Below are positions 100 to 63,200 of a stretch of DNA of 64,000 nucleotides, in pieces (within the stretch, counting starts at the first letter, position 1; each line of letters begins with the position of its first letter). This DNA is from the human T2T-CHM13v2.0 reference genome, Homo sapiens, in the NCBI RefSeq assembly GCF_009914755.1, contig NC_060933.1. One strand, written 5' to 3'. Below the pieces are notes generated by a model. The model saw nothing but the letters and a program-made list of their open reading frames with translations, was not told where the DNA came from and searched no databases. The translations under genes were made by a program, and so were the position numbers.

Positions 100-114
100 G
101 GAATCTTCCGGAAT
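100..114. promoter_or_regulatory. Perfect canonical heat-shock element nGAAnnTTCnnGAAn (first of ~24 copies of GGAATCTTCCGGAAT)
   Basis: gGAAt-cTTCc-gGAAt matches the three-unit HSF1 trimer consensus exactly. HSF1 binding to SatIII arrays is established, but binding at this site is inferred. Confidence 0.55.
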
Positions 115-1849
115 GGAATGGAATGGAATGGAATGGAATGGAATGGAATGGAATCAACCCGAGTGCAATGGAATGGAGTGGAATGCAATGGAATGGAATG
201 GAACAACCCGAATGGAATGGAATGTAATGGAGAGTAAGGGAGTTGAATAGAATGAATCCGAATGTAATGGATTGGAATGGAACGGAACGGAACGCAATGG
301 AATGGAATGGAATCGAATGGAATGGAATCAACTCGAGTGCAGGGGAATGGATTGGAATGGAATGCAATGGAATGGAATCTTCCGGAATGGAATGGAATGG
401 AATGGAATGGAATGAAATGCAATGGGTTCAACTCGATTGCAATGGAATGGAATAGAATGGAATGGAATGGAATGGAATGGAATTAATTCGAATAGAATGG
501 AATGGAATGTAATGGAACGGAATGGAACGGAATGGAATGGAATGGAATGGAATGGTATGGAACGGAATGGAATGGTACGGAATAGAATGGAATGGAACGA
601 ATTGTAATGGAATGGAATTGAATGGAATGGAATGGAATGGAATGGAATCAACGCGACTGCAGGGGAATGTAATGGAACGGAATGCAATGGAATGGAATCA
701 TCCGCAATGGAATGGAATGGAATGGAATGGAATGGAATCAACCCGAGTGCAATGGAATGGAGTGGAATGGAATGGAATGGAATGGAACAACCCGAATGGA
801 ATGGAATGTAATGGAGAGTAAGGGAGTTGAATAGAATCAATCCGAATGTAATGGAATGGAATGCAACGGAATGGAATGGAATGGAATGGAATGGAATGGA
901 ATTAACCCTAATAAAATGGAATGGAATGGAATGGAACGGAATGGAGTGGAATGGAATGGAATCAACCCGAGTGCAGGGGAATCTAATGGAATGGAATGCA
1001 ATGGAATGGTATCATCCGGAATGGAATGGAATGGAATGGAATGCAAAGCAATGGAATCAACTCGATTGCAATGGAATGGAATGGAATGGAAAGGAATACA
1101 TTGGAATCAACCCGAGTGTAATGGAATGGAAAGGACTGGAATGGAGTGGAATGGAATGGAATGGAATGGAATGGAATCAACTCGATTGGAATGGAATGGA
1201 ATGGAATGGAATGGAATTAACCCGAATACAATGGAATGGAATGGAATGGAACGGAACGGATTGGAATGGAATGGAATGGAATGGAATGGAATGGAATGGA
1301 ATCAACCCGACTGCAGGGGAATGGGATGGAATGGAAGGCAATGGAATGGATTCAACTTGAACGGAATGGAAAGAATGGAATCAACACGAGTGGAATGGCA
1401 TGGATTGGAATGGAATGGAATGGAATCAACCCGAGTACAGGGGAATGGAATGGAATGCAATGCAATGGAATGGAATCATCCGTAATGGAATGGAAAGGAA
1501 TGGAATGGAATGGAATGGAATGGAATGGAATGGAATCAACTCGATTTCAATCGAATGGAATGGAATGGAATTAACCCGAATAGAATGGAATGGAATGGAA
1601 TGGAACGGAACGGAACGGAATGGAACGGAACGGAGTGGAATGGAATGGAATGGAATTGTATGGAATGGAATGGCATGGTACGGAATAGAATGGAATGGAA
1701 AGAATTGGAATGGAATGGAATCGAATGGAATGGAATGGAATGGAATGGAATCAACCCGAGTACAGGGGAATGTAATGCAAAAGAATGCAATGGAATGGAA
1801 TCATCCGGAATGGAATGGAATGGAATGGAATGGAATGGAATGGAATGGA

Positions 1850-4800
1850 ATGGAATCAACCCGAGTGCAATGGAATGGAGTGGAATGGAATGGAATGGAA
1901 TGGAGTGGAATGGAATCGAATGGAATGGAACAACCCGAATGGAATGGAATGTAATGGAGAGTAAGGGAGTTGAATAGAATCACTCCGAATGTAATGGAAT
2001 GGAACGGAATGGAATGGAATGGAATGGAATGGAATGGAATGGAATGGAATGGAATGCAATGGAATGGAATCAACCCGAGTACAATGGAACGGAATGGAAT
2101 GTAATGGAATGGAATGGAATGGAATGGAATGGAATGGAATGGAATCAACCTGAGTGTAATGGAATGGAGAGGAATGGAATGGAATGGAATGGAAACTAAC
2201 CGAATGGAATGGAATGTAATGGAGCGTAAGGGAATTGAATAGAATCAATCCGAATGGAATGGAATGGAATGGAACGGAATGTAATGGAATGGAATGAAAT
2301 GGAATCAACCCGAGTGCAGGCGAATGGAATGGAATGGAATGCAATGGAATGGAATCATCCGGAATGGAATGGAATGGAATGCAATGGAATGGAATGGAAT
2401 GGAATCAACCCGAGTGCAATGGAATGGAGTGAAATGGAATGGAATGGAATGGAAACAACCAGAATGGATTGTAATATATTGGAGTGTAAGGGAATGGAAT
2501 AGAATCAATCTGAATGTAATGAAATGGAATGGAACGGAATGAAATGGAATGGAATGGAATGCAATGGAATGGAATCAACCAGAGTGCAATCGAATGGAAT
2601 CGAATGGAATGGAATGCAATGGAATGGATTCAACTTGAATGGAAAGGAAAGAATGGAATCAACACGAGTGGAATGGCATGGATTGGAATGGAATGGAATG
2701 GAATCAACCCGAGTACAGGGGAATGGAATGGAATGGAATGCAATAGAATGGAATCATCAGTAATGGAATGGAAAGGAATGGAAAGGACTGGAATGGAATG
2801 GAATGTAATGGAATGGAATGGAATCAACTCGATTGCAATCGAATGGTATGGAATGGAATGGAATCAACTCGATTGCAATCGAATGGAATGGAATGCAATT
2901 AACCCGAATAGAATGGAATGGAATGGTATGGACCGGAACGGAATGGAATGGAATGGAATGGAATGGAACGGAAAGGAATGGAATGGAATGGAATGGAATG
3001 GAATGGAATGGAATGGAATGGAATCAACGCGCGTGCAGGGGAATGGAATGGAATCGAATGGAATGGAAAGGAATGGAATGGAATCAACCCGAGTGCAGGG
3101 GAATGTAATGGAACGGAATGCAATGGAATGGAATCATCCGGAATGGAATGGAATGGAATCAACCCGAGTGCAATGGAATGGAGTGGAATGGAATGGAATG
3201 GAATGGAACAACCCGAATGGAATGGAATGTAATGGAGAGTAAGGGAGTTGAAAAGAATCAATCCGAATGTAATGGAATGGAATGGAACGGAATGGAATGG
3301 AATGGAATGCAATGGAATGGAATCAACCCGAGTAAAATGGAAAGGAATGGAATGGAATGGAATGGAATGGAATGGAATGGAATGCAATGGAATGGAATCT
3401 TCCGGAATGGAATGGAATGGAATGGAATGGAATGCAATGGATTCAACTAGATTGCAATGGAATGGAATAGAATGGAATGGAATGGAATGCAATGGAATGG
3501 AATTAAACCGAATAGAATGGAATGGAATGGAATGGAACGGAACAGAACGGAAAGGAACGGAACGGAGTGGAATGGAATGGAATGGAATTGTATGGAATGG
3601 AATGGAATGGTACGGAATAGAATGGAATGGAAAGAATTGGAATGGAATGGAATCGAATGGAATGGAATGGAATGGAATGGAATCAACCCGAGTGCAAGGG
3701 AATGTAATGGGACGGAATGCAATGGAATGGAATCATCCGGAATGGAATGGAATGGAATGGAATGGAATGGAATGGAATGGAATCAACCCGAGCGCAATGC
3801 AATGGAGTGGAATGGAATGGAATGGAATGGAACAACCCGAATGGAATGGAATGTAATGGAGAGTAAGGGAGTTGAATTGAATCAATCCGAATGTAATGGA
3901 ATGGAACGGAATGGAATGGAAGGGAATGGAATGGAATGGAATGGAATGGAATGGAATGCAATGGAATGGAATCAACCCGAGTACAAAGGAACGGAATGGA
4001 ATGTAATGTAATGGAATGGAATGGAATGGAATGGAATGGAATGGAATGGAATGGAATGGAATCAACCCGAGTGCAATGGAATGGAGAGGAATGGAATGGA
4101 ATGGAATGCAATGGAATGGAATCATCCGGAATGGAAACCAATGGAATGGAATGCAAAGCAATGGAATCAACTCGATTGCAATGGAATGGAATGGAATGGA
4201 AAGGAATACATTGGAATCAACCCGAGTGGAATGGAATGGAAAGGACTGGAATGGAGTGGAATGGAATGGAATGGAATGGAATGGAATCAAATCGATTGGA
4301 ATGGAATGGAATGGAATGGAATGGAATGGAATGGAATGGAATGGAATTAATCCGAATAGAATGGAATGGAATGGAATGGAACGGATCGGAATGGAATGGA
4401 ATGGAATGGAATGGAAGGGAATGGAATGGAATGGAAACAACCCGACTGCAGGGGAATGGAATGGAATGGAATGGAATGGAAGGACACGGAATAGAATGGA
4501 ATGGAACGAAATGGAATGGAATGGAATGGAATGGAATGGAATGGAATGGAATGGAATCGTTCCGAGTGGAATAGGAGGGAATGTATTCGAGTGGAATGGA
4601 AAGGAATGGAATCAACCAGAGTGGAATGTAAGGGAATGGAATGGAATGGAAACTAATAGAATGGAATCAACCCGAGTGGAATGGAATGGAAAGGACTGGA
4701 ATGGAATGGAATGGAATGGAATCAACTCGATTGTAATGGAATGGAATGGAATGGAATGGAATGGAATGGAATGGAATTAACCCGAATACAATGCAATGGA

Positions 4801-5720
4801 ATGGAATGGAACGGAATGGAGTGGAATGGAATGGAATCAACCCGAGTGCAGGGGAATGGAATGGAATGGAATGCAATGGAATGGAATCATCCGGAATGGA
4901 ATGGAATGGAATGGAATGCAAAGCAATGGAATCAACTCGATTGCAATGGAATGGAATGGAATGGAAAGGAATACATTGGAATCAACCCGAGTGGAATGGA
5001 ATGGAAAGGACTGGAATGGAGTGGAATGGAATGGAATGGAATGGAATGGAATCAACTCGATTGGAATGGAATGGAATGGAATGGAATGGAATGGAATGGA
5101 ATTAAACCGAATAGAATGGAATGGAATGGAATGGAACGGAACGGAACGGAATGGAATGGAATGGAATGGAATGGAATGGAATGGAAACAACCCGACAGCA
5201 GGGGAATGGAATGGAATGGAATGGAAACAACCCGACTGCAGGGGAATGGAATGGAATGGAATGCAAAGGAATGGATTCAACTTGAATGAAATGGAAAGAA
5301 TGGAATCAACACGAGTGGAATGGCATGGATTGGAATGGAATGGAATGGAATCAACCCGAGTACAGAGGAATGGAATGGAATGGAATGCAATGGAATGGAA
5401 TTATCCGTAATGGAATGGAAAGGAATGGAATGGAATGGAATGGAATGGAATGGAATGGAATCAACTCGATTGCAATCGAACGGAATGGAATGGAATTAAC
5501 CCGAATAGAATGGAATGGAATGGAATGGAATGGAACGGAACGGAATGGAATGGATTGGAATGGAATGGAATGGAATGGAATGGAACGGAAAGGAATGGAA
5601 TGGAATGGAATGGAATGGAATGGAATGGAATGGAATGGAATGGAATCAACGCGAGTGCAGGGCAATGGAATGGAATGGAATGCAATGGAATGGAATCTTC
5701 CGGAATGGAATGGAATGGAA
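1850..5720 (+). repeat. ~3.85-kb segment duplicated in direct orientation at ~55135-58950
   Basis: Shared rare variants in the same order: ATCACTCCG (~1981/~55237), GGAGCGTAAG, GCAGGCGAATGG, AATATATTGG, CATCAGTAATGG, CGCGCGTGC, GGGACGG, CGGATCGG, AGGACACGG, CCGACAGC, TACAGAGG, GCAGGGCAATGG. Offset ~53.23-53.26 kb. Confidence 0.9.
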
Positions 5721-8169
5721 TGGAATGGAATGGAATAAACCCGAGTGCAATGGAATGGAGTGAAATGGAATGGAATGGAATGGAACAACCCGAATGGAAT
5801 GGAATGTAATGGAGAGTAAGGGAGTTGAATAGAATCAATCCGAATGTAATGGAATGGAATGGAACGGAATGGAATGGAATGGAATGGAATGGAATGCAAT
5901 GGAATTGAATCAACCCGAGTACAATGGAATGGAATGGAATGGAATGGAATGGAATGGAATGGAATGATACGGAATAGAATGGAATGGAAAGAAATGGAAT
6001 GGAATGGAATGGAATGGAATGGAATGGAATCAACCCGAGTGCTGGGGAATGGAATGGAATGGAATGCAATGGAATGGAATCATCCGGAATGGAATGGAAT
6101 GGAATGGAATGCAAAGCAATGGAATCAACTCGATTGCAATGGAATGGAATGGAATGGAAAGGAATACATTGGAATCAACCCGAGTGGAATGGAATGGAAA
6201 GGACTGGAATGGACTGGAATGGAATGGAATGGAATGGAATCAACTCGATTGGAATGCAATGGAATGGAATGGAATGGAATTAACCCGAATAGAATGGAAT
6301 GGAATGGAATGGAACGGAACGGAACGGAATGGAATGGAATGGAATGGAATGGAAGGCAATGGAATAGATTCAACTTGAATGGAATGGAAAGAATGGAATC
6401 AACACGAGTGGAATGGCATGGATTGGAATGGAATGGAATGGAATCAACCCGAGTACAGGGGAATGGAATGGAATGGAATGCAATGGAATGGAATCATCCG
6501 TTATGGAATGGAAAGGAATGGAATGGAATGGAATGGAATGGAATGGAATGGAATGGAATGGAATCAACTCGATTGCAATCGAATGGAATGGAATGGAATT
6601 AACCCGAATAGAATGGAATGGAATGGAATGGAACGGAATGGAATGGAATGGAATGGAATGGAATGGAACGGAAAGGAATGGAATGGAATGGAATGGAATG
6701 GAATGGAATGGAATGGAATGGAATCAACGCGAGTGCAGGGGAATGGAATGGAATCGAATGGAATGGAAAGGAATGGAATGGAATCAACCCGAGTGCAGGG
6801 GAATGTAATGGAACGGAATGCAATGGAATGGAATCATCCGGAATGGAATGGAATGTAATGGAATGGTATCAACCCGAGTGCAATGGAATGGAGTGGAATG
6901 GAATGGAATGGAATGGAACAACCCGAATGGAATGGAATGTAATGGAGAGTAAGGGAGTTGAAAAGAATCAATCCGAATGTAATGGAATGAAATGGAACGG
7001 AATGGAATGGAATGGAATGGAATGGAATGGAATGGAATGCAATGGAATGGAATCAACCCAAGTACAATGGAATGGAATGGAATGGAATGGAATAGAATGG
7101 AATGGAATGCAATGGAATGGAATCTTCCGGAATGGAATGGAATGGAATGGAATGGAATGGAATGGAATGCAATGGATTCAACTCGATTGCAATGGAATGG
7201 AATAGAATGGAATGGAATGGAATGGAATGGAATGGAATGGAATTAAACCGAATACAATGGAATGGAATGGAATGGAATGGAATGGAACAGAACGGAACGG
7301 AACGGAACGGAGTGGAAAGGAATGGAATGGAATTGTATGCAATGGAATGGAATGGTAAGGAATAGAATGGAATGGAAAGAATTGGAATGGAATGGAATGG
7401 AATGGAATGGAATGGAATCAAACCAAGCGCAATGGAATGGAGTGGAATGGAATGGAATGGAATGGAACAACCCGAATGGAATGGAATGTAATGGAGAGTA
7501 AGGGAGTTGAACAGAATCAATCCGAATGTAATGGAATGGAACGGAATGGAATGGAATGGAATGGAATGGAATGGAATGGAATGCAATGGAATGGAATCAA
7601 CCCGAGTACAATGGAACGGAATGTAATTTAATGTAATGTCATGGAATGGAACGGAATGGAATGGAATTGAATCAACCCGAGTGCAATGGAATGGAGAGGA
7701 ATGAAATGGAATGGAATGGAAACTACCCGAATGGAATGGAATGTAATGGAGTGTAAGGGAATTGAATAGAATCAATCCGAATGGAATGGAATGGAATAGA
7801 ACGGAATGTAATGTAATGGAATGGAATGGAATCAACCCGAGTGCAGGGGAATGGAATGGAATGGAATGCAATGGAATGGAATTATCCGGAATGGAATGGA
7901 ATGGAATGCAATGGAATGGAATGGAATGGAATCAACCCGAGTGCAATGGAATGGAGTGAAATGGAATGGAATGGAATGGAGACAACCAGAATGGATTGGA
8001 ATATAATGGAGTGTAAGGGAATTGAATAGAATCAATCTGAATGTAATGAAATGGAATGGAACGGAATGGAATGGAATGGAACGGAATGGAATGGAATGGA
8101 ATGCAATGGAATGGAATCAACCCGAGTGCAATCGAATGGAATCGAATGGAATGGAACGCAATGGAATGG

Positions 8170-11100
8170 ATTCAACTTGAATGGAATGGAAAGAATGGAA
8201 TCAACACGAGTGGAATGGCATGGATTGGAATGGAATGGAATGGAATCAACCCGAGTATAGGGGAATGGAATGGAATGGAATTCAATGGAATGGAATGATC
8301 CGTAATGGAATGGAAAGGAATGGAATGGAATGGAATGGAATGGAATGGAATCAACTCGATTGCAATCGAATGGAATGGAATGGAATTAACCCGAATAGAA
8401 TGGAATGGAATGGAATGGAACGGAACGGAATGGAATGGAATGGAATGGAATGGAATGGAATGGAGTGGAACGGAAAGGAAGGGAATGGAATGGAATGGAA
8501 TGGAATGGCATGGAATGGAATCAACACGAGTGCAGGGGAATGGAATGGAATGGAATGGAATGGAATGGAATCTTCCGGAATGGAATGGAATGGAATGGAA
8601 TGGAATGGAATGGAATGGAATAAACCCGAGTGCAATGGAATGGAGTGGAATGGAATGGAATGGAATGGAACAACCCGAATGGAATGGAATGTAATGGAGA
8701 GTAAGGGAGTTGAATAGAATCAATCCGAATGTAATGGAATGGAATGGAACGCAATGGAATTGAATGGAATGGAATGGAATGCAATGGAATGGAATCAACC
8801 CGAGTGCAATGGAATGGAGAGGAATGGAAAGGAATGGAATGGAAACTACCCGAATGGAATGGAATGTAATGGAGTGTAAGGGAATTGAATAGAATCAATC
8901 CGAATGTAATGGAATGGTATGGAACGGAATGGAATGGAATGTAATGGAATGGAATGGAATGGAATGCAATGGAATGGAATCAACCCGAGTGCAATCGAAT
9001 GGAATCGAATGGAATGGAATGCAATGGAATGGATTCAACTTGAATGGAATGGAAAGAATGGAATCAACACGAGTGGAATGGCATGGATTGGAATGGAATA
9101 TAATGGAATCAACCCGAGTACAGGGGAATGGAATGGAATGGAATGCAATGGAATGGAATCATCCGTAATGGAATGGAAAGGAATGGAATGGAATGGAATG
9201 GAATGGAATGGAATGGAATCAACTCGATTGCAATCGAATGGAATGGAATGGAATTAACCCGAATAGAATGGAATGGTACGGAACGGAATGGAATGGAATG
9301 GAATGGAATGGAATGGAATGGAATGGAATGGAATCAACGCGAGTGCAGGGGAATGGAATGGAATGGAATGCAATGGAATGGAGTCTTCCGGAATGGAATG
9401 GAATGGAATGGAATTGAATGAAATGCAATGGATTCAACTCGATTGCAATGGAATGGAATAGAATGGAATGGAATGGAATGGAATGGAATTAATTCGAATA
9501 GAATGGAATGGAATGGAATGGAACGGAATGGAACGGAATGGAATGGAATGGAAGGGAATGGAATGGTATGGAATGGAATGGAATGGAATGGTACGGAATA
9601 GAATGGAATGGAACGAATTGTAATGGAATGGAATTGAATGGAATGGAATGGAATGGAATGGAATCAACGCGAGTGCAGGGGAATGTAATGGAACGGAATG
9701 CAATGGAATGGAATCATCCGGAATGGAATGGAATGGAATGGAATGGAATGGAATGGAATCAACCCGAGTGCAATGGAATGGAGTGGAATGGAATGGAATG
9801 GAATGGAACAACCCGAATGGAATGGAATGTAATGGAGAGTAAGGGAGTTGAATAGAATCAATCCGAATGTAATGGAATGGAATGCAACAGAATGGAATGG
9901 AATGGAATGGAATGGAATGCAATGGAATTGAATCAACCCGAGTACAATGGAATGGAATGGAATGGAATGGAATGGAATGGAATGGAATGATACGGAATAG
10001 AATGGAATGGAACGAAATGGAATGGAATGCAATGGAATGGAATGGAATGGAGTGGAATGGAATGGAATCGTTCCGAGTGGAATAGGAGGGAATGTATTCG
10101 AGTGGAATGGAAAGGAATGGAATCAACCAGAGTGGAATGGAAGGGAATGGAATGGAATGGAAACTAATAGAATGGAATCAACCCGAGAGGAATGGAATGG
10201 AAAGGACTGGAATGGCATGGAATGGAATGGAATGGAATGGAATGGATTTAACGCGAATACAATGCAATGGAATGGAATGGAACGGAATGGAGTGGAATGG
10301 AATGGAATCAACCCGAGTGCAGGGGAATGGAATGGAATGGAATGCAATGGAATGGAATCTTCCGGAATGGAATGGAATGGAATGGAATGGAATAGAATGG
10401 AATGGAATGGAATGGAATGGAATCAACTCGATTGGAATGGAATGGAATGGAAAGGAATGGAATGGAATGGAATTAACCCGAATAGAATGGAATGGAATGG
10501 AATGGAACGGAACGGAATGGAATGGAATGGAATGGAAACAACCAGACTGCAGGGGAATGGAATGGAATGGAATGCAATGGAATGGGTTCAACTTGAATGG
10601 AATGGAACGAATGGAATCAACACGAGTGGAATGGCATGGATTGGAATGGAATGGAATGGAATCAACCCGAGTACAGGGGAATGGAATGGAATGGAATGCA
10701 ATGGAATGGAATCATCCGTAATGGAATGGAAAGGAATGGAATGGAATGGAATGGAATGGAATGGAATGGAATGGAATCAACTCGATTGCAATCGAATGGA
10801 ATGGAATGGAATTAAACCGAATAGAATGGAATGGAATGGAATGGAACGGAACGGAACGGAATGGAATGGATTGGAATGGAATGGAATGGAATGGAATGGA
10901 ACGGAAAGGAATGGAATGGAATGGAATGGAATGGAATGGAATGGAATCAACGCGAGTGCAGGGGAATGGAATGGAATGGAATGCAATGGAATGGAATGCA
11001 ATGGAATGGAATGGAATGGAATGGAATGGAATGGAATGGAATGGAATCAACCCGAGTGCAATGGAATGGAGTGGAATGGAATGGAACAACCCGAATGGAA

Positions 11101-13000
11101 TGGAATGTAATGGAGAGTAAGGGAGTTGAATAGAATCAATCCGAATGTAATGGAATGGAATGGAACGGAATGGAATTGAATGGAATGGAATGGAATGCAA
11201 TGGAATGGAATCAACCCGAGTGCAATGGAATGGAGAGGAATGGAATGGAATGGAATGGAAACTACCCGAATGGAATGGAATGTAATGGAGTGTAAGGGAA
11301 TTGAATAGAATCAATCCGAAAGTAATGGAATGGAACGGAATGGAATGGAATGGAATGGAATGGAATGGAATGGAATGGAATGCAATGGAATGGAATCAAC
11401 CCGAGTGCAATCGAATGGAATCGAATGGAATGGAATGCAATGGAATGGATTCAACTTGAATGGAATGGAAAGAATGGAATCAACACGAGTGGAATGGCAT
11501 GGATTGGAATGGAATGGAATGGAATCAACCCGAATACAGGGGAATGGAATGGAATGGAATGCAATGGAATGGAATCATCCGTAATGGAATGGAAAGGAAT
11601 GGAATGGAATGGAATGGAATGGAATGGAATGGAATGGAATGGAATGGAATCAACTCGATTGCAATCGAATGGAATGGAATGGAATTAACCCGAATAGAAT
11701 GGAATGGAATGGAATGGAACGGAACGGAATGGAATGGAATGGAATGGAATGGAATGGAACGGAACGGAATGGAATGGAATGGAATGGAATGGAATGGAAT
11801 CAACGCGAGTGCAGGGGAATGGAATGGAATGGAATGCAATGGAATGGAATCTTCCGGAATGGAATGGAATGGAATGGAATGGAATGAAATGCAATGGATT
11901 CAACTCGATTGCAATGGAATGGAATAGAATGGAATGGAATGGAATGGAATGGAATTAATCCGAATAGAATGGAATGGAATGGAATGGAACGGAATGGAAC
12001 GGAATGGAATTGAATGGAATGGAATGGAATGGTATGGAATGGAATGGAATGGTAGGGAATAGAATGGAATGGAACGAATTGTAATGGAATGGAATTGAAT
12101 GGAATGGAATGGAATGGAATGGAATCAACGCGAGTGCAGGGGAATGTAATGGAACGGAATGCAATGGAATGGAATCATCCGGAATGGAATGGAATGGAAT
12201 GGAATGGAATGGAATCAACCCGAGTGCAATGGAATGGAGTGGAATGGAATGGAATGGAATGGAACAACCCGAATGGAATGGAATGTAATGGAGAGTAAGG
12301 GAGTTGAATAGAATCAATCCGAATGTAATGGAATGGAATGCAACGGAATGGAATGGAATGGAATGGAATGGAATGCAATGGAATTGAATCAACCCGAGTA
12401 CAATGGAATGGAATGGAATGGAATGGAATGGAATGGAATGGAATGGAATGGAATGGAATCGTTCCGAGTGGAATAGGAGGGAATGCATTCGAGTGGAATG
12501 GAAAGGAAAGGTATCAACCAGAGTGGAATGGAAGGGAATGGAATGGAATGGAAACTAATAGAATGGAATCAACCCAAGTGGAATGGAATGGAAAGGACTG
12601 GAATGGAATGGAATGGAATGGAATCAACTCGATTGTAATGGAATGGAATGGAATGGAATGCAATGGAATGGAATTAACCCGAATACAATGGAATGGAATG
12701 GAATGGAACGGAATGGAGTGGAATGGAATGGAATCAACCCGAGTGCAGGAGAATGGAATGGAATGGAATGCAATGGAATGGAATCATCCGGAATGGAATG
12801 GAAAGGAATGGAATGCAAAGCAATGGAATCAACTCGATTGCAATGGAATGAAATGGAATGGAAAGGAATACATTGGAATCAACCCGAGTGGAATGGAATG
12901 GAAAGGACTGGAATGGAGTGGAATGGAATGGAATGGAATGGAATGGAATCAACTCGATTGGAATGGAATGGAATGGAATGGAATGGAATTAACCCGAATA
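8170..13000 (+). repeat. Two tandem ~2.4-kb higher-order units, each starting with an ~0.86-kb subunit repeat
   Basis: TTCAACTTG anchors at 8171, 9034, 10587 and 11450 (spacings 863 and 2416). Module order is colinear thereafter. Confidence 0.75.
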
Positions 13001-15849: not shown

Positions 15850-16229
15850 TAATGGAGAGTTAGGGAGTTGAATAGAATCAATCCGAATGTAATGGAATGG
15901 AAGGGAATGGAATGGAATGGAATGGAATGGAATGGAATGGAATGGAATGCAATGGAATGGAATCAACCCGAGTACAATGGAACGGAATGGAATGGAATGG
16001 AATGGCATGGAATGGAATGGAATGGAATGGAATGGAATGGAATGGAGAGTTAGGGAGTTGAATAGAATCAATCCGAATGTAATGGAATGGAACGGAATGG
16101 AATGGAATGGAATGGAATGGAATGGAATGGAATGGAATGCAATGGAATGGAATCAACCCGAGTACAATGGAACGGAATGGAATGGAATGGAATGGCATGG
16201 AATGGAATGGAATGGAATGGAATGGAATG
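15850..16229 (+). repeat. 190-bp tandem duplication
   Basis: Private variant GGAGAGTTAGGGAG at ~15854 and ~16044. AATGGCATGG at 16001 and 16191. Confidence 0.85.
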
Positions 16230-17437
16230 GAATGGAATCAACCCAAGTGCAATAGAATGGAGAGGAATGGAATGGAATGGAATGGAAACTACCCGAATGG
16301 AATGGAATGTAATGGAGTGTAAGGGAATTGAATAGAATCAATCCGAATGTAATGGAATGGAATGGAACGGAATGGAATGGAATGGAATGGAATGGAATGG
16401 AATAAACCCGAGTGCAATGGAATGGAGTGGAATGGAATGGAATGGAATGGAACAACCCGAATGGAATGGAATGTAATGGAGAGTAAGGGAGTTGAATAGA
16501 ATCAATCCGAATGTAATGGAATGGAATGGAACGGAATGGAATTGAATGGAATGGAATGGAATGGAATCAACCCGAGTGCAATGGAATGGAGAGGAATGGA
16601 ATGGAATGGAATGGAAACTACCCGAATGGAATGGAATGTAATGGAGTGTAAGGGAATTGAATAGAATCAATCCGAATGTAATGGAATGGAATGGAACGGA
16701 ATGGAATGGAATGGAATGGAATGGAATGGAATCGAATGGAATGGAATGCAATGGAATGGAATCAACCCGAGTGCAATCGAATGGAATCGAATGGAATGGA
16801 ATGCAATGGAATGGATTCAACTTGAATGGAATGGAAAGAATGGAATCAACACGAGTGGAATGCCATGGATTGGAATGGAATGGAATGGAATCAACCCGAG
16901 CACAGGGGAATGGAATGGAATGGAATGCAATGGAATGGAATCATCCGTAATGGAATGGAAAGGAATGGAATGGAATGGAATGGAATGGAATGGAATGGAA
17001 TGGAATGGAATCAACTCGATTGCAATCGAATGGAATGGAATGGAATTAACCCGAATAGAATGGAATGGAATGGAATGGAACGGAACGGAACGGAACGGAA
17101 CGGAGTGGAATGAGTGGAATGGAATGGAATGGAATTGTATGGAATGGAATGGCATGGTACGGAATAGAATGGAATGGAAAGAATTGGAATGGAATGGAAT
17201 CGAATGGAAGGGAATGGAATGGAATGGAATCAACCCGAGTGCAATGGAATGGAGTGGAATGGAATGGAATGGAATGGAACAACCCGAATGGAATGGAATG
17301 TAATGGAGAGTAAGGGAGTTGAATAGAATCAATCCGAATGTAATGGAATGAAACGGAATGGAATGGAATGGAATGGAATGGAATGGAATGGAATGGAATG
17401 GAATGCAATGGAATGGAATCAACCCGAGTACAATGGA

Positions 17438-17456
17438 ACGGAATGGGTTTATTCCA
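17438..17456. other. Strand-switch junction 1 (GGAAT> <ATTCC)
   Basis: Sequence ...GGAACGGAAT[GG]GTTTATTCC. The forward repeat ends at 17446 and the reverse complement of GGAATAAACCC begins at 17445, giving 2-bp GG microhomology and no inserted bases. Confidence 0.95.
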
Positions 17457-50600: not shown

Positions 50601-53600
50601 TGGAATGGATTCAACTAGAATGGAATGGAAAGGAATGGAATCAACTCGAGTGGAATGGCATGGCATGGAATGGAATGGAATGGAATGGAATGGAATGGAA
50701 AGGTAGGGAATAGAATGGAAAGGAACGAAATGGAATGGAATGGAATGGAATGAATTGAATGGAATGGAATAGAATGGAATCCACTCGATTGCAGGGGAAT
50801 GGAATGGAACGGAATGCAATGGAATGGAATGGAATGGATTCAACCCGAATGGAATGGAAAGGAATGGAATCAACCCGAGTGGAATGGCATGGAATGGAAT
50901 GGAATGGAATGGAATGGTACGGAATAGAATGGAATGGAACGAAATGGAATGGAATGGAATGGAATGGAATGGAATGGAATGGAATGGAATGGAATCAACC
51001 TGAGTGCAATGGAATGGAGTGGAATGGAATGTAATGGAACGGAAACAACCCGAATGGAATGGAATGTAATGGAGTGTAAGGGAATTGAATACAATCAATC
51101 CGAATGTAATGGAATGGAATGGAACGGAATGGAATGGAATGGAATGGAATGGAATGAAATGGAATGGAATGGAATGAAATGGAATGGCAGGGAATGGAAT
51201 GGAATCAACCCGAGTGCAAAGGAATGGAATGGAATGGAATGGAATGGAATGGAATGGAATGGAATGGAATGGATTCAACCCGAATGGAATGGAAAGGAAT
51301 GTAATAAACCTGAGTGGAATGGCATGGAATGGAATGGAATGGAATGGAATGGTACGGAATAGAATGGAATGGAACGAAATGGAATGGAATGGAATGGAAT
51401 GGAATGGAATCAACCTGAGTGCAATGGAATGGAGTAGAATGGAATGTAATGGAATGGAAACAACCCGAATGGAATGGAATGTAATGGAGTGTAAGGGAAT
51501 TGAGTACAATCAGTACGAATGTAATGGAATGGAATGGAACGGAATGGAATGGAATGGAAAGGAATGGAATCAACACGAGTGCAGGGGAATGGAATGGAAT
51601 GGAATGCAATGGAATGGAATCATCCTGAATGGAATGGAATGCAATGGAATAGAATCAATCAACCCGAGAGCAATAGAATGCAGAGGAATGGAATGGAATG
51701 GAATGGAAACTACCCGAATGGAATGGAATGTAATGGAGTGTAAGGGAATTAAAAAGAATCAATCCGAATGTAATGGAATTGAACGGAAAGGAATGGAATG
51801 GAATGGAACGGAATGGAATGGAATGGAATGAAATGGAATGGCATGGAATGGAATGGAATCAACCCGAGTTCAATGGAATGGAATGGAATGGAATGGAATG
51901 GAATGGAATGGAATGGAATGGAATGGATTCAACCCGAATGGAATGGAAAGGAATGGAATAAACCCGAGTGAAATGGCATGGAAGGGAATGGAATGGAATG
52001 GAATGGTAAGGAATAGAATGGAATGGAACGAAATGGAATGGAATGGAATGGAATGGAATGGAATGGAATGGAATGGAATGGAATGGAATGGAATGAACCC
52101 GTGTGCAAAGGAATGGAATGGAATGGAATGGAATGGAATGGAATAGAATGGAATGGGTTCAACTGGAATGGAATGGAAAGGAATGGAATCAACCCGAGTG
52201 CAATGGAATGGAGTGGAATGGAATGGAATGGAATGGAATCAACCCGAGTGCAATGGAATAGAATGGAATGGAATGGAATGGAATGGAATGGAATGAATTC
52301 AACCCGAATGGAATGGAAAGGAATGGAATAAACCCGAGTGGAATGGCATGGAATGGAGTGGAATGGAATGGAATGGAATGGTACGGAAGAGAATGGAATG
52401 GAACGAAATGGAATGAAATGGAATAGAATGGAATGGAATGGAATGGAATGGAATGAACCCGTGAGCAATGGAATGGAATCGAATGGAATGGAATCGAATG
52501 GAATGGATTCAACTCGAATGGAATGGAAAGTAATGGAATCAACTCGAATGGAATGGAAAGTAATGGAATCAACCCGAGTGGAATGGCATGGAATGGAATC
52601 GAATGGAATGGAAAGGAATGGAATCAACCCGAGTGCAGAGGAATGGAATGGAATGGAAGGCAATGGATTGGAATGAAATGGAATGGCATGGAATGGAATG
52701 GAATCAACCCGAGTTCAATGGAATTGAATGGAATGGAATGGAATGGAATGGAATAAACTCGATTGCAAAGGAATGGAATGGAATGGAATGGAATGGAATG
52801 GAATGGAATGGAATTAACCCTAATAGAATGGAATGGAATGGAATAGAATGGAATGGAATGGAAGGGAATGGAATGGAATGGAATGGAATTAACCCGAATA
52901 GAATGGAATGGAATGGAATTGAATGGAATGGAATGGAATGGAATCAACTCGATTTCAATGGAATGGAATGGAATGGAATGGAATGGAATGGAATGGAATG
53001 GAATGGAATGGAATAGAATGGAATCCACCCGAGTGCAGGGGAATGGAATGGAATAGAATGCAATGGAATGGAATCATACGGAATGGAATGGAATGGAATG
53101 GAATTGAATGGAATGGAAAGGAATGGAAACAACCCGAATGGAAAGGAATGTGATGGATTGTAAGGGAATTGAATAGAATCAATCCGAATGTAATGGAATT
53201 GAATGGAACGGAATGGAATGGAATGGAATGGAATGGAATGGAATGGAATGGAATGCAAAGGAATGGGATCAACCCGAGTGCAATGGAATGGAATCGAAAG
53301 GAATGGAATGGAATGGAAAGGCTTCACCCCGAATGGAATGGAAAGGAATGGAATCAACCCGAGTTGAATGGAATGGAATGGAATGGAATGGAATGGAATG
53401 GAATGGAATGGAATGCAATGGAATGTAACGGAATGGAATCAACCCGATTGCAATGAAACTGAATGGAATGGAATGGAATGGAATGGAATTAACCCAAATA
53501 GAATGGAATGGAATGGAATGGAATGGTATGGAATGGAATGGAACGGAATGGAATGGAATGGAATTGAATGGAATCAACCCGGGTGCAGGGGAATGCAATT

Positions 53601-54215
53601 GAATGGAAGGCAATGGAATGCAATCATCCGAAATGGAATGGAATTGCATGGAATGGAATGGTTTCAACCCGAATGGAATGGAATGGAAAGGAATCAACCC
53701 AAGTGGAATGGCATGGAATGGAATGGAATGGAATGGAATGGAATGGAATGGAATGGAATGGTATGGAATAGAATGGAATGGAACGAAATGGAATGGAAGG
53801 GAATGGAATGGAATGGAATGGAATCAACCCGACTGCAATGGAATGGAGTGGAATGGAATGGAATGGAATGGAAACAACCCGAATGGAATGGAATGTAATG
53901 GAGTGTAAGGGAATTGAATACAATCAATACGAATGTAATGGAATGGAATGGAACGGAACGGAATGGAATGGAATGGAATGGAATGGAATGGAATGGAATG
54001 GATTCAACCCAAATGGAATGGAAAGCAATGGAATCAACCCGAGTGGAATGGCATGGAACGGAATGGAATGGAATGGTATGGAATAGAATGGAATGCAAAG
54101 AAATGGAATGGAATGGAATGGAATGGAACGGAATGGAATGGAAAGGAATGGAATGGAATGGAATGGAATAGAATGGAATGGAACGAAATGGAATGGAATG
54201 GAACGGAATGGAATG
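44636..54215 (+). repeat. HSat3 block 3a: GGAAT on +, module type B
   Basis: Orientation returns to GGAAT after ...TTGCACACGG at 44635. Same type-B modules (AAACCTAG ~44770, ~47914, ~49793; CCGTGTGC ~46927, ~48741, ~50561; AATTAAAAAG ~45410, ~51747). Confidence 0.88.
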
Positions 54216-57200
54216 GAATCAATCCGAGTGGAATAGAAGGGAATGCAATCGAGTAGAATGGAAAGGAATGGAATCAACCAGAGTGGAATGGAAGGGAATG
54301 GAATGGAATGGAATGGAATGGAATGGAATGGAATGGAATGGAATCAAGTCGATTGCAATGGAATGTAATGGAATGGAGTGGAATGGAATTAACGCGAATA
54401 GAATGGAATGGAATGGAATGGAATGGAATGGAATCAACCTGAGTGCAGGGGAATGGAATGCAATGGAATGCAATGGAATGCAAAGGAATGGAATGGAATG
54501 GAATGGAATCAACGCGAGTACAGGGGAATGGAATTTAATGGAATGCAATGGAATGGAATCTTCCGGAATGGAATGGAATGGAATGGAATCAACCCGAGTG
54601 CAATGGAATGGAGAGGAATGGAATGGAATGGAATGGAACAACCCGAATGGAATCGAATGTAATGGAGAGTAAGGGAGTTGAATAGAATCAATCCGAATGT
54701 AATGGAATGGAATGGAACGGAATGGAATTGAATGGTATCGAATGGAATGCAATGGAATGGAATCAACCCGAGTGCAATGGAATGGAGAGGAATGGAATGG
54801 AATGGAATGGAAACTACCCGAATGGAATGGAATGTAATGGAGTGTAAGGGAATTGAATAGAATCAATCCGAATGTAATGGAATGGAATGGAACGGAATGG
54901 AATGGAATGGAATGGCATGGAATGGAATGGAATGGAATACAATGGAATGGAATCAACCCGAGTGCAATTGAATGGAATCGAATGTAATGGAATGCAATGG
55001 AATGGATTCAACTTGAATGGAATGGAAAGAATGGAATCAATACGAGTGGAATGGCATGGATTGGAATGGAATGGAATGGAATCAACCCGAGTACAGGGGA
55101 ATGGAATGGAATGGAATGCAATGGAATGGAATGGAATCAACCCGAGTGCAATGGAATGGAGTGGAATGGAATGGAATGGAATGGAACAACCCGAATGGAA
55201 TGGAATGTAATGGAGAGTAAGGGAGTTGAATAGAATCACTCCGAATGTAATGGAATGGAACGGAATGGAATGGAATGGAATGGAATGGAATGGAATGGAA
55301 TGGAATGGAATGCAATGGAATGGAATCAACCCGAGTACAATGGAACGGAATGGAATGTAATGTAATGTAATGGAATGGAATGGAATGGAATGGAATGGAA
55401 TGGAATCAACCCGAGTGCAATGGAATGGAGAGGAATGGAATGGAATGGAATGGAAACTACCCGAATGGAATGGAATGTAATGGAGCGTAAGGGAATTGAA
55501 TAGAATCAATCCGAATGGAATGGAATGGAATGGAACGGAATGTAATGGAATGGAATGAAATGGAATCAACCTGAGTGCAGGCGAATGGAATGGAATGGAA
55601 TGCAATGGAATGGAATCATCCGGAATGGAATGGAATGGAATGCAATGGAATGGAATGGAATGGAATCAACCCGAGTGCAATGGAATGGAGTGAAATGGAA
55701 TGGAATGGAATGGAAACAACCAGAATGGATTGGAATATATTGGAGTGTAAGGGAATGGAATAGAATCAATCTGAATGTAATGAAATGGAATGGAACGGAA
55801 TGGAATGGAATGGAATGGAATGCAATGGAATGGAATCAACCCGAGTGCAATCGAATGGAATCGAATGGAATGGAATGCAATGGAATGGATTCAACTTGAA
55901 TGGAAAGGAAAGAATGGAATCAACACGAGTGGAATGGCATGGATTGGAATGGAATGGAATGGAATCAACCCGAGTACAGGGGAATGGAATGGAATGGAAT
56001 GCAATAGAATGGAATCATCAGTAATGGAATACAAAGGAATGGAAAGGACTGGAATGGAATGGAATGTAATGGAATGGAATGGAATCAACTCGATTGCAAT
56101 CGAATGGTATGGAATGGAATGGAATCAACTCGATTGCAATCGAATGGAATGGAATGGAATTAACCCGAATAGAATGGAATGGAATGGTATGGAACGGAAC
56201 GGAATGGAATGGAATGGAATGGAATGGAACGGAAAGGAATGGAATGGAATGGAATGGAATGGAATGGAATGGAATGGAATGGAATCGAATGGAATCAACG
56301 CGCGTGCAGGGGAATGGAATGGAATCGAATGGAATGGAAAGGAATGGAATGGAATCAACCCGAGTGCAGGGGAATGTAATGGAACGGAATGCAATGGAAT
56401 GGAATCATCCGGAATGGAATGGAATGGAATCAACCCGAGTGCAATGGAATGGAGTGGAATGGAATGGAATGGAATGGAACAACCCGAATGGAATGGAATG
56501 TAATGGAGAGTAAGGGAGTTGAAAAGAATCAATCCGAATGTAATGGAATGGAATGGAACGGAATGGAATGGAATGGAATGGAATGCAATGGAATGGAATC
56601 AACCCGAGTACAATGGAATGGAATGGAATGGAATGGAATGGAATGGAATGGAATGCAATGGAATGGAATCTTCCGGAATGGAATGGAATGGAATGGATTG
56701 GAATGGAATGCAATGGATTCAAATCGATTGCAATGGAATGGAATAGAATGGAATGGAATGGAATGGAATGGAATGGAATTAAACCGAATAGAATGGAATG
56801 GAATGGAATGGAAAGGAACAGAACGGAATGGAACGGAACGGAGTGGAATGGAATGGAATGGAATTGTATGGAATGGAATGGAATGGTACGGAATAGAATG
56901 GAATGGAAAGAATTGGAATGGAATGGAATCGAATGGAATGGAATGGAATGGAATGGAATCAACCCGAGTGCAAGGGAATGTAATGGGACGGAATGCAATG
57001 GAATGGAATCATCCGGAATGGAATGGAATGGAATGGAATGGAATGGAATGGAATCAACCCGAGCGCAATGGAATGGAGTGGAATGGAATGGAATGGAATG
57101 GAACAACCCGAATGGAATGGAATGTAACGGAGAGTAAGGGAGTTGAATTGAATCAATCCGAATGTAATGGAATGGAACGGAATGGAATGGAAGGGAATGG

Positions 57201-60200
57201 AATGGAATGGAATGGAATGGAATGGAATGCAATGGAATGGAATCAACCCGAGTACAAAGGAACGGAATGGAATGTAATGTAATGTAATGGAATGGAATGG
57301 AATGGAATGGAATGGAATCAACCCGAGTGCAATGGAATGGAGAGGAATGGAATGGAATGGAATGCAATGGAATGGAATCATCCGGAATGGAAAGGAATGG
57401 AATGGAATGCAAAGCAATGGAATCAACTCGATTGCAATGGAATGGAATGGAATGGAAAGGAATACATTGGAATCAACCCGAGTGGAATGGAATGGAAAGG
57501 ACTGGAATGGAGTGGAATGGAATGGAATGGAATGGAATGGAATGGAATCAACTCGATTGGAATGGAATGGAATGGAATGGAATGGAATGGAATGGAATGG
57601 AATTAACCCGAATAGAATGGAATGGAATGGAATGGAACGGATCGGAATGGAATGGAATGGAATGGAATGGAAGGGAATGGAATGGAATGGAAACAACCCG
57701 ACTGCAGGGGAATGGAATGGAATGGAATGGAATGGAAGGACACGGAATAGAATGCAATGGAACGAAATGGAATGGAATGGAATGGAATGGAATGGAATGG
57801 AATGGAATGGAATCGTTCCGAGTGGAATAGGAGGGAATGTATTCGAGTGGAATGGAATGGAATGGAATCAACCAGAGTGGAATGGAAGGGAATGGAATGG
57901 AATGGAAACTAATAGAATGGAATCAACCCGAGTGGAATGGAATGGAAAGGACTGGAATGGAATGGAATGGAATGGAATCAACTCGATTGTAATGGAATGG
58001 ACTGGAATGGAATGGTATGGAATGGAATGGAATGGAATTAACCCGAATACAATGCAATGGAATGGAATGGAACGGAATGGAGTGGAATGGAATGGAATCA
58101 ACCCGAGTGCAGGGGAATGGAATGGAATGGAAAGCAATGGAATGGAATCATCCGGAATGGAATGGAATGGAATGGAATGCAAAGCAATGGAATCAACTCG
58201 ATTGCAATGGAATGGAATGGAATGGAAAGGAATACATTGGAATCAACCCGAGTGGAATGGAATGGAAAGCACTGGAATGGAGTGGAATGGAATGGAATGG
58301 AATGGAATGGAATCAACTCGATTGGAATGGAATGGAATGGAATGGAATGGAATGGAATTAAACCGAATAGAATGGAATGGAATGGAATGGAACGGAACGG
58401 AATGGAATGGAATGGAATGGAATGGAATGGAATGGAAACAACCCGACAGCAGGGGAATGGAATGGAATGGAATGGAAACAACCCGACTGCAGGGGAGTGG
58501 AATGGAATGGAATGCAAAGGAATGGATTCAACTTGAATGAAATGGAAAGAATGGAATCAACACGAGTGGAATGGCTTGGATTGGAATGGAATGGAATGGA
58601 ATCAACCCGAGTACAGAGGAATGGAATGGAATGGAATGCAATGGAATGGAATTATCCGTAATGGAATGGAAAGGAATGGAATGGAATGGAATGGAATGGA
58701 ATGGAATCAACTCGATTGCAATCGAATGGAATGGAATGGAATTAACCCGAATAGAATGGAATGGAATGGAATGGAATGGAACGGAACGGAATGGAATGGA
58801 TTGGAATGGAATGGAATGGAATGGAATGGAACGGAAAGGAATGGAATGGAATGGAATGGAATGGAATGGAATGGAATCAACGCGAGTGCAGGGCAATGGA
58901 ATGGTATGGAATACAATGGAATGGAATCTTCCGGAATGGAATGGAATGGAATGGAATGGCATGAAATGCAATGGATTCAACTCGATTGCAATGGAATGGA
59001 ATAGAATGGAATGGAATGGAATGGAATGGAATTAACCCGAATAGAATGGAATGGAATGGAATGGAACGGAATGGAACGGAATGGAATGGAATGGAATGGA
59101 ATGGAATGGAATGGAATGGTATGGAATGGAATGGAATGGAATCAACCCGAGTGCAATGGAATGGAGTGGAATGGAATGGAATGGGATGGAACAACCCGAA
59201 TGGAATGGAATGTAATGGAGAGTAAGGGAGTTGAATAGAATCAGTCCGAATGTAATGGAATGGAATGCAACGGAATGGAATGGAATGGAATTGAATGGAA
59301 TGGAATGGAATGGAATCAACCCGAGTACAATGGAATGGAATGGAATGGAATGGAATGGAATGGAATGGAATTGAATGGAATGGAATGCCTTCAAACCGAA
59401 TGGAATGGAAAGGAATGGAATCAACAAGAGTAAAATGGAATGGAATGGAATGGAAAGGAATGGAATGGAATGGAATGGTACGGAATAGAATGGAATGGAA
59501 CGAAATGGAATGGAATGGAATGGAATGGAATGGAATGGAATGGAATGGAATGGAATGGAATCGATCCGAGTGGAATAGGAGGGAATGTATTCGATTGGAA
59601 TGGAAAGGAATGGAATCAACCAGAGTGGAATGGAAGGGAATGGAATGGAATGGAAACTAATAGAATGGAATCAACCCGAGTGGAATGGAATGGAAAGGAC
59701 TGGAATGGAATGGAATGGAATGGAATGGAATGGAATGGAATCAACTCGATTGTAATAGAATGGAATGGAATGGAATGGAATGGAATGGAATGGAATGGCA
59801 TGGAATGGAATTAACCCGAATACAATGGAATGGAATGGAATGGAACGGAATGGAGTGGAATGGAATGGAATCAACCCGAGTGCAGGGGAATGGAATGGAA
59901 TGGAATGCAATGGAATGGAATCATCCGGAATGGAATGGAATGGAATGGAATGCAAAGCAATTGAATCAACTCGATTGCAATGGAATGGAATGGAATGGAA
60001 AGGAATAGAATGGAATCAACCCGAGTGGAATGGAATGGAAAGGACTGGAATGGAGTGGAATGGAATGGAATGGAATGGAATGCAATCAACTCGATTGGAA
60101 TGGAATGGAATGGAATGGAATGGAATGGAATCAACTCGATTGCAATCGAATGGAATGGAATGGAATTAACCCGAATAGAATGGAATGGAATGGAATTTAA

Positions 60201-63200
60201 CGGAACGGAATGGAATGGAATGGAATGGAATGAAATGGAACGGAACGGAACGGAATGGAATGGAATGGAATGGAATGGAATGGAAAGGAATCATCGCGAG
60301 TGCAGGGGAATGGAATGGAATGGAATGCAATGGAATGGAATCTTCCGGAATGGAATGGAATGGAATAGAATGGAATGAAATGCAATGGATTCAACTCGAT
60401 TGCAATGGAATGGAATGGAATGGAATGGAATGGAATGAAATGCAATGGATTCAACTCGATTGCAATGGAATGGAATAGATTGGAATGGAATGGAATGGAA
60501 TGGAATGGAATGGAATGGAATGGAATTAACCCGAATAGAATGGAATGGAATGGAATGGAACGGAATGGAAAGGAATGGAATGGAATGGAATGGAATGGTA
60601 TGGAATGGAATGGAATGGTACGGAATAGAATGGAATGGAACGAATTGTAATGGAATGGAATTGAATGGAATGGAATGCAATGGAATGGAATGGAATCAAC
60701 GCGAGTGCAGGGGAATGTAATGGAACGGAATGCAATGGAATGGAATCATCCGGAATGGAATGGAATGGAATGGAATGGAATGGAATCAACCCGAGTGCAA
60801 TGGAATGGAGTGGAATGGAATGGAATGGAATGGAACAACCCGAATGGAATGGAATGTAATGGAGAGTAAGGGAGTTGAATAGAATCAATCCGAATGTAAT
60901 GGAATGGAATGCAACGGATTGGAATGGAATGGAATGGAATGGAATGCAATGGAATGGAATCAACCCGAGTACAATGGAATGGAATGGAATGGAATGGAAT
61001 GGAATGGAAAGCCTTCAAACCGAATGGAATGGAAAGGAATGGAATCAACACGAGTGGAATGGAATGGAATGGAATGGAATGGAATGGAATGGAATGGAAT
61101 GATACGGAATAGAATGTAATGGAACGAAATGGAATGGAATGGAATGGAATGGAATGGAATGGAATGAAATGGAATGGAATCGTTCCGAGTGGAATAGGAG
61201 GGAATGTATTCGAGTGGAATGGAAAGGAATGGAATCAACCAGAGTGGAATGGAAGGGAATGGAATGGAATGGAAACTAATAGAATGGAATCAACCCGAGT
61301 GGAATGCAATGGAAAGGACTGGAATGGAATGGAATGGAATGGAATGGAATGGAATGGAATCAACTCGATTGGAATGGAATGGAATGGAATGGAATGGAAT
61401 GGAATTAACCCGAATACAATGGAATGGAATGGAATGCAACGGAATGGAGTGGAACGGAATGGAATCAACCCGAGTGCAGGGGAATGCAATGGAATGGAAT
61501 GCAATGGAATGGAGTCATCCGGAATGGAATGGAATGGAATGGAATGCAAAGCAATGGAATCAACTCGATTGCAATGGAATGGAATGGAATGGAAAGGAAT
61601 ACATTGGAATCAACCCGAGTGGAATGGAATGGAAAGGACTGGAATGGAGTGGAATGGAATGGAATGGAATGGAATGGAATCAACTCGATTGGAATGGAAT
61701 GGAATGGAATGGAATGGAATGGAATGGAATGGAATTAACCCGAATAGAATGGAATGGAATGGAATGGAACGGAACGGAACGGAACGGAACGGAATGGAAT
61801 GGAATGGAATGGAATGGAATGGAATGGAATGGAATCAACCCGACTACAGGGGAATGGAATGGAATGGAAAGCAATGGAATGGATTCAACTTGAATGGAAT
61901 GGAAAGAATGGAATCAACACGAGTGGAATGGCATGGATTGGAATGGAATGGAATGGAATCAACCCGAGTACAGGGGAAAGGAATGGAATGGAATGCAATG
62001 GAATGGAATCATCCGTAATGGAATGGAAAGGCATGGAATGGAATGGAATGGAATGGAATGGAATGGCATGGAATCAACTCGATTGCAATCGAATGGAATG
62101 GAATGGAATTAACCCGAATAGAATGGAATGGAATGGAATGGAACAGAACGGAACGGAATGGAATGGAATGGAATGGAATGGAACGGAAAGGAATTGAATG
62201 GAATGGAATGGAATGGAATGGAATGGAATGGAATGGAATCAACGTGAGTGCAGGGGAATGGAATGGAATGGAATGCAATGGAATGGAATCTTCCGGAATG
62301 GAATGGAATGGAATGGAATTGAATGGAATCAACCTGAGTGCAATGGAATGGAGTGGAATGGAATGGAATGGAATGGAACAACCCGAATGGAATCGAATGT
62401 AATGGAGAGTAAGGGAGTTGAATAGAATCAATCCGAATGTAATGGAATGGAATGGAACGGAATGGAATTGAATGGTATGGAATGGAATGCAATGGAATAG
62501 AATCAACGTGAGTGCAATGGAATGGAGAGGAATGGAATGGAATGGAATGGAAACTACCCGAAAGGAATGGAATGTAATGGAGTGTAAGGGAATTGAATAG
62601 AATCAATCCGAATATAATGGAATGGAATGGAACGGAATGGAATGGAATGGAATGGAATGGAATGGAATGGAATGGAATGGAATGGAATGCAATGGAATGG
62701 AATCAACCCGAGTGCAATCGAATGGAATCGAATGGAATAGAATGCAATGGAATGGATTCAACTTGAATGGAATGGAAACAATGGAATCAATACGAGTGGA
62801 ATGGCATGGATTGGAATGGAATGGAATGGAATCAACCCGAGTACAGGGGAATGGAATGGAATGGAATGCAATGGAATGGAATCATCCGTAATGTAATGGA
62901 AAGGAATGGAATGGAATGGAATGGAATGGAATGGAATGGAATGGAATGGAATCAACTCGATTGCAATCAAATGGAATGGAATGGAGTTAACCCAAATAGA
63001 ATGGAATGGAATGGAATGGAACGGAACGGAATGGAATGGAATGGAATGGAATGGAATGGAATCAACGCGAGTGCAGGGGAATGTAATGGAACGGAATGCA
63101 GTGGAATGGAATCATCCGGAATGGAATGGAATGGAATGGAATGGAATGGAATCAACCCGAGTGCAATGGAATGGAGTGGAATGGAATGGAATGGAATGGA

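What the first reader, a model, noticed from the sequence alone, without database searches (positions are those of the whole stretch)
100..62299. ~24 perfect heat-shock elements, confined to type-A satellite
Plain GGAAT repeats give only head-to-tail nGAAn units, but the module GGAATCTTCCGGAAT is an exact nGAAn-nTTCn-nGAAn element. Copies start at 100, 374, 3394, 5692, 7119, 8567, 10354, 11846, 14252 and 15395; inverted at 20816, 23198, 24732, 26555, 27089, 28623, 30391, 31239 and 32097; then at 54555, 56665, 58923, 60337 and 62285. I saw none in the ~22 kb between 32112 and 54554. The common sister module GGAATCATCCGGAAT is one base away. Established: HSF1 binds SatIII and drives stress-induced SatIII RNA in nuclear stress bodies. 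Inference: type-A domains are HSF1 platforms flanking an HSE-free core.
Basis: partly seen in the sequence, partly recalled or inferred. Interest (0 to 1): 0.75.

Follow-up and report, generated by a model that had tools for sequence, protein, structure and literature searches.

The report
Chromosome 9 satellite's heat-shock docking sites
A 15-base variant of the chromosome 9 satellite repeat spells a textbook heat-shock element and occurs 12,700 times in the genome, likely serving as the landing site for the stress factor HSF1, which is already known to bind this satellite unevenly.

Summary
Observation confirmed: 24 of 24 exact GAA..TTC..GAA elements at the stated places, all one 15-mer, none in 32,113-54,554. 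The headline idea is largely in print: Franklin et al. report HSF1 motifs in sub-regions of HSat3 with heat-shock ChIP-seq following them. Added here: the 15-mer has 12,700 copies, 17% of all perfect three-unit elements in CHM13, apparently all in the chr9 array. It rides on one flanking haplotype, so it is one amplified variant, with no extra conservation. chrY satellite carries unrelated elements (about 9,700 copies), matching the two known primary stress-body loci. HSF1 binding to this exact 15-mer rather than its one-base sister was not testable. The exact motif was not found in print. Known system, now resolved to a testable base.

The parts
1..17439 (+). Type-A HSat3, GGAAT strand on +, 10 perfect HSEs
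17440..17458 (.). Convergent strand switch inside type A; 20 identical copies, all in the chr9 array
17459..32600 (-). Type-A HSat3, GGAAT strand on -, 9 perfect HSEs
32600..54450 (.). Type-B island: no perfect HSE, 2 sister modules, lower CpG (20 vs 25-27 per kb)
44621..44640 (.). Divergent strand switch at the centre of the B island; 80 identical copies (87 with one mismatch) in the chr9 array
54450..64000 (+). Type-A HSat3, GGAAT strand on +, 5 perfect HSEs
100..114 (+). HSE 15-mer
374..388 (+). HSE 15-mer
3394..3408 (+). HSE 15-mer
5692..5706 (+). HSE 15-mer
7119..7133 (+). HSE 15-mer
8567..8581 (+). HSE 15-mer
10354..10368 (+). HSE 15-mer
11846..11860 (+). HSE 15-mer
14252..14266 (+). HSE 15-mer
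15395..15409 (+). HSE 15-mer
20816..20830 (-). HSE 15-mer
23198..23212 (-). HSE 15-mer
24732..24746 (-). HSE 15-mer
26555..26569 (-). HSE 15-mer
27089..27103 (-). HSE 15-mer
28623..28637 (-). HSE 15-mer
30391..30405 (-). HSE 15-mer
31239..31253 (-). HSE 15-mer
32097..32111 (-). HSE 15-mer
54555..54569 (+). HSE 15-mer
56665..56679 (+). HSE 15-mer
58923..58937 (+). HSE 15-mer
60337..60351 (+). HSE 15-mer
62285..62299 (+). HSE 15-mer

Best explanation
The 24 sites are copies of one chr9-satellite module variant that spells a perfect three-unit heat-shock element, occurs 12,700 times in the genome, and likely provides the high-affinity sites where activated HSF1 trimers land to seed nuclear stress bodies. 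Shown: sequence, counts, confinement to type A, linkage to one haplotype. Inferred: a single A-to-T change in the commoner sister module made the element, and expansion of type A spread it to about one copy per 1.7 kb. Inferred: a trimer binds each site, in-register GAA units downstream (1-5 per site) and nearby sister sites help further loading, and the local density drives condensate formation and transcription of the G-rich strand. Type-B islands are likely an older form, shared with other chromosomes, that never received the variant; they are not a designed core.
For: Perfect match to the HSE definition of at least three inverted nGAAn units. 12,700 of 76,189 perfect elements genome-wide (16.7%). 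No copy on contigs 1-8 on either strand; 12 of 12 and the 100 listed of 105 copies tagged by a rare next base lie in chr9:49.5-75.9 Mb; 77 copies in 200 kb of 23 array samples extrapolate to 10,600 (bootstrap 8,000-13,100). chrY satellite has 2-3 other perfect elements per 3.6 kb, two of them with 4,836 and 4,895 copies; chr9 and chrY are the two reported primary HSF1 targets. None in four HSat3 samples from chr14, 15, 22 (10 kb). Published: HSF1 motifs lie in HSat3 sub-regions and heat-shock ChIP-seq is enriched where they are dense; granules need only the DNA-binding and trimer domains. Single origin: 71 of 109 element copies vs 3 of 176 sister copies share one upstream haplotype.
Against: No binding data could be examined. 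The pHuR98 probe, said not to be organised as a canonical HSE, still bound HSF1 in vitro at about four times the protein (above 12.5 ng vs above 3 ng), so perfect elements are not strictly needed. The sister (20,563 copies) is one mismatch from perfect and co-distributed, so domain-level ChIP cannot tell them apart. No extra conservation of the core bases (8 of 513 vs 36 of 1,413 mismatches, p=0.23). In HT1080 cells HSF1 foci form on chrY and not chr9, so the motif is not sufficient. Samples of other arrays were small and 6 of 8 acrocentric samples missed or only clipped HSat3. Each site has three units only and a central CpG of unknown effect.
Confidence: 0.75

Rival explanations
1. HSF1 loads on type A through many weak sites (the sister module and the every-second-GAA step pattern) or chromatin state; the perfect element is a passenger marker of type A, not the determinant.
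For: pHuR98 binds HSF1 without canonical organisation. Sister outnumbers the element 20,563 to 12,700 and keeps the guanine said to be most conserved. One-mismatch sites are 11-13 per 10 kb in A vs 4.6 in B. No excess conservation.
Against: Step-type matches are equal in A and B (654 vs 668 per 10 kb) and would be present in every GGAAT array, yet ChIP follows motif density and chr9 and chrY, the arrays with perfect elements in my samples, are the primary targets. HSF1 is reported to prefer canonical elements.
Confidence: 0.17
2. The variant matters through another reader or not at all in vivo: on the C-rich strand it creates a CCGGAAG core (an ETS-type word, recalled), and methylation of the central CpG could hide the site from HSF1.
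For: CCGGAAG occurs 25 times in A and 0 in B; the CpG sits at the centre of the element.
Against: ETS motifs were noted as largely not enriched in HSat3. The CpG fills the two variable positions, not the GAA/TTC cores (sequence). HSF1 bound chr9 on chromosome spreads from unstressed cells. No paper on HSF1 methyl sensitivity was found.
Confidence: 0.05
3. The elements are an assembly artefact or local curiosity of this window.
For: Highly repetitive region; one genome examined.
Against: Same module at steady density from 49.2 to 76.5 Mb, in varied flanks.
Confidence: 0.01

Closest known systems
HSF1 motif sub-regions of HSat3 (Franklin et al., bioRxiv 10.1101/2024.10.22.616524, Fig. 2b; abstract, passages, sections 5 and 13 read; figure and supplements not seen)
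   Same: HSF1 motifs unevenly placed within HSat3 in T2T-CHM13, with heat-shock ChIP-seq enriched where they are dense.
   Different: The text read names no motif sequence, count, origin, chromosome split or relation to inversion junctions.
HSF1 binding to 9q12 satellite III / nuclear stress bodies (Jolly et al. 2002, PMC2173303; parts 1-2 of 4 read)
   Same: Same locus, factor and direct DNA binding.
   Different: That paper judged the nGAAn layout of its probe non-canonical and left the recognised feature open; the array does hold canonical elements. The review PMC9032817 (passages) mentions putative HSEs at 9q12 only as an unpublished observation.
HSEs in chrY satellite III (PMC7889540; passages)
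   Same: Perfect HSEs interspersed in a GGAAT satellite that is a primary HSF1 target.
   Different: Different sequences, so likely independent origins; Y has 2-3 kinds per 3.6 kb unit, chr9 essentially one.
Strand switches of the chr9 HSat3B5 array (10.1101/2021.07.12.452052; 10.64898/2026.07.22.740206; 10.64898/2026.09.03.749043; passages)
   Same: Many inversions; number scales with array length and is read as a by-product of expansion.
   Different: Passages read do not say that scores of them are copies of one junction or that they sit in an HSE-poor subtype (vs 59, 64).

Membership tests
Canonical (perfect) heat-shock element | At least three contiguous inverted nGAAn units | tested here: met
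   24 of 24 sites; definition
Canonical (perfect) heat-shock element | Four or more alternating units for cooperative two-trimer binding | tested here: not met
   Flanking pentamers are head-to-tail; only gap/step-type extension, 1-5 in-register units downstream, upstream in 1 of 24
Canonical (perfect) heat-shock element | Bound by HSF1 trimer at that sequence after stress | not testable with these tools
   Only domain-level published ChIP
Canonical (perfect) heat-shock element | Drives HSF1-dependent transcription nearby | not testable with these tools
   Satellite III RNA is heat-induced; start sites unmapped
Human satellite 3, chr9 array (HSat3B5) | Diverged GGAAT pentamer array at the chr9 pericentromere | tested here: met
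   array name and 27.6 Mb size
Human satellite 3, chr9 array (HSat3B5) | Subfamily assignment by published k-mer sets | not tested
   k-mer sets not available
Element under purifying selection | Core bases more conserved than the same positions of sister modules | tested here: inconclusive
   8 of 513 vs 36 of 1,413, p=0.23; small, non-independent sample
Hairpin-type recognition site | Stable fold of the single strand | tested here: not met
   -1.9 kcal/mol, z 0.13 for one 56-base site

The most novel reading that the evidence does not exclude
One base change, amplified 12,700-fold, made chr9 the heat-shock hub, chrY got there independently by other changes, and together three satellite words hold 29% of the genome's perfect HSEs as a copy-number-variable HSF1 sink. 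The chr9 array is built of repeated back-to-back units: an HSE-poor island around one ancestral inversion junction (about 87 copies), with HSE-dense arms whose transcribed strand points outward.
Probability: 0.3. Interest if true: 0.75.

Novelty: new member of a known kind. Interest (0 to 1): 0.5.

Why it matters
Since 2002 it has been open what HSF1 recognises at 9q12 and why chr9 and chrY outrank other GGAAT arrays. A defined 15-mer with a natural one-base control in the same flanks makes this testable from existing ChIP-seq reads without mapping. Because chr9 HSat3 size is reported to range from 0.76 to 20.69 Mb between people, the number of these sites could vary widely and alter how much HSF1 is tied up during stress (inference). 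The shared junction says that many of the array's inversions are copies of few events.

Tried and rejected
Shuffle tests as evidence of enrichment: rejected, since copies share descent. Selection on the core: not detected. Hairpin at the site: none. B island as a perfect mirror duplicate around its junction: rejected; the arms are 90% alike, the same as unrelated B stretches. B confined to junctions: rejected; B-marked loci lie 34 kb, 40 kb and about 3 Mb from the nearest copy (L012, L007, L003). Sampling acrocentric arrays from recalled coordinates: 5 of 8 missed, 1 clipped, 2 hit. Effect of CpG methylation on HSF1: nothing found. Exact motif in print: four spellings gave two unrelated papers, seen as listings only; searches found no further paper mapping HSEs or shared junctions in the T2T array. 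Subscription journals, figures and preprint supplements were not seen and may hold this. PMC13705371, PMC13634412 and 10.64898/2026.07.13.738322 (passages) added nothing on the motif.

Full report
Observation. The window is pure GGAAT satellite in three orientation blocks. All 24 sites are exact and are the only GAA..TTC..GAA matches on either strand; none lies between 32,113 and 54,554. Two sequence types are separable by 10-mers unrelated to the motif, with borders near 32.6 and 54.45 kb. Dinucleotide shuffles give mean 2.98, largest 10 of 100; pentamer-preserving shuffles give mean 12.0, largest 21 of 300. About 0.4 elements would be expected from scattered single changes at 2% divergence. 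These numbers show that the sites are not scattered chance; they do not show selection.

Scale. The 15-mer has 12,700 copies in the genome (6,460 and 6,240 by strand; reversed control 3), its sister 20,563, and all perfect three-unit elements 76,189, so this one word is 16.7%. The tool lists in contig order; the first hits on each strand are chr9:49.76 and 49.16 Mb, so contigs 1-8 have none. Copies tagged by a rare following base all fall in the chr9 array: 12 of 12, and the 100 listed of 105, with 5 unseen. Twenty-three samples inside the array (200 kb; L001 and L002 left out as flank) hold 77 copies, extrapolating to 10,600 (8,000-13,100) over 27.6 Mb. All 18 samples without the B marker carry the element; 4 of 5 with it carry none, and the fifth (L012) is mixed and has 4. 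Window densities imply about 22 Mb of type A and at most 3.8 Mb of type B. The B marker also occurs in satellite on chr4, 5 and 7, which lack the element, so B is likely the older shared form.

Other arrays. Two chrY samples hold 3 and 2 perfect elements per 3.6 kb, of other sequences; two of these words have 4,836 and 4,895 copies, listed at about 3.5 kb spacing on contig 24 after 46 and 1 scattered hits. With the chr9 word that is 29% of perfect elements. Two chr15 samples and one each from chr14 and chr22 had none; one clipped chr21 sample had one element of another sequence; five samples missed HSat3. This fits chr9 and chrY being the reported primary HSF1 targets (PMC7889540, passages), but the negative samples total only 10 kb.

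Origin. The array is a mosaic of modules. Counting the 15-mer and one close variant, 71 of 109 copies share one upstream anchor and spacer, against 3 of 176 sister copies. The sister occurs in both types and is commoner, so one A-to-T change followed by amplification is the simplest history (inference). Core bases are not detectably better kept than in sister lineages (8 of 513 vs 36 of 1,413, p=0.23).

Mechanism. The site meets the definition of a typical HSE (PMC4552642, passages). It offers three units, one trimer; every site has 1-5 further GAA units in register downstream, which could aid loading (inference). Median spacing in type A is 1.65 kb. HSF1 granules on 9q12 need DNA binding and trimerisation only, and form on stripped chromosomes (PMC2173303). 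Heat induces mainly the G-rich strand (PMC2241877, passages). Against a strict need: the pHuR98 probe bound HSF1 though judged non-canonical, and HT1080 cells form foci on chrY but not chr9. The central CpG occupies the two variable positions; its effect is unknown (searches found nothing). The reverse strand gains a CCGGAAG word, 25 in A and 0 in B; its reading as ETS-type is recalled.

The element-free core. Its centre is a divergent strand switch at 44,621-44,640. That 20-mer has 80 exact copies, all at chr9:52.3-76.4 Mb, and 7 more in the array with one mismatch. All five other copies fetched are real strand switches in type B; the four centred ones hold 2 elements in 40 kb against about 23 expected. 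Tagged elements are depleted near the junctions: 3 of 103 within 20 kb vs 13 expected, not independent. One arm is 94-97% alike to the window in four copies (91.5% over 1.3 kb in the fifth) against 88-90% for controls; the other arm is 90-92% in four and 99.6% in one. The convergent switch at 17,440 lies in type A and has 20 copies; two other convergent switches seen have other sequences. Switches must alternate, and published totals are 'over 200' (pooled wording) or about 129 per haplotype, so this one junction likely accounts for most divergent switches (inference). Type B also occurs away from junctions.

What is known. Franklin et al. state that HSF1 motifs are enriched in sub-regions of HSat3 and that heat-shock ChIP-seq follows them; I could not see the figure or supplements, which may show this very array. 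Putative HSEs at 9q12 are mentioned as unpublished (PMC9032817), and perfect HSEs are described for chrY. Strand switches are described as by-products of expansion. The exact motif, its count, single origin and the shared junction were not found in the held library.

Verdict. Real, and a likely sequence-level answer within a known system. Interest 0.5.

Noticed in passing
window 44621-44640; L020, L038-L041: One divergent inversion junction recurs as 80 exact copies (87 with one mismatch) along the chr9 array, in type-B islands in all 5 other copies checked.
   Followed up: partly
window 17440-17458; L009, L016: Convergent junctions lie in type A and come in several sequences; the window's has 20 copies.
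   Followed up: partly
window 2200-5450 and 55461-58701: Near-identical stretch of about 3.2 kb repeated in direct orientation 53.26 kb apart; also 23259-26573 repeated about 3.85 kb further on.
   Followed up: no
L021, L022 (chrY): chrY satellite HSEs are almost all on one strand and likely explain the genome-wide strand excess of perfect elements (45,122 vs 31,067).
   Followed up: partly
L008-L010, L017, L019: Further perfect variants of the chr9 element (mostly with AAAC in place of AATC) add about 15%: 90 perfect elements vs 77 exact 15-mers in 200 kb.
   Followed up: no
window 32600-54450: Type B has fewer CpG (20 vs 25-27 per kb) and fewer CCGG sites (8 in 21.6 kb vs 68 in 42.4 kb), which would bias HpaII/MspI methylation assays of this satellite towards type A.
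   Followed up: no
chr9:52.3-53.7 Mb and 61.65-62.4 Mb: Spacing and orientation of junction copies repeat between these two stretches, suggesting a megabase-scale duplication inside the array.
   Followed up: no
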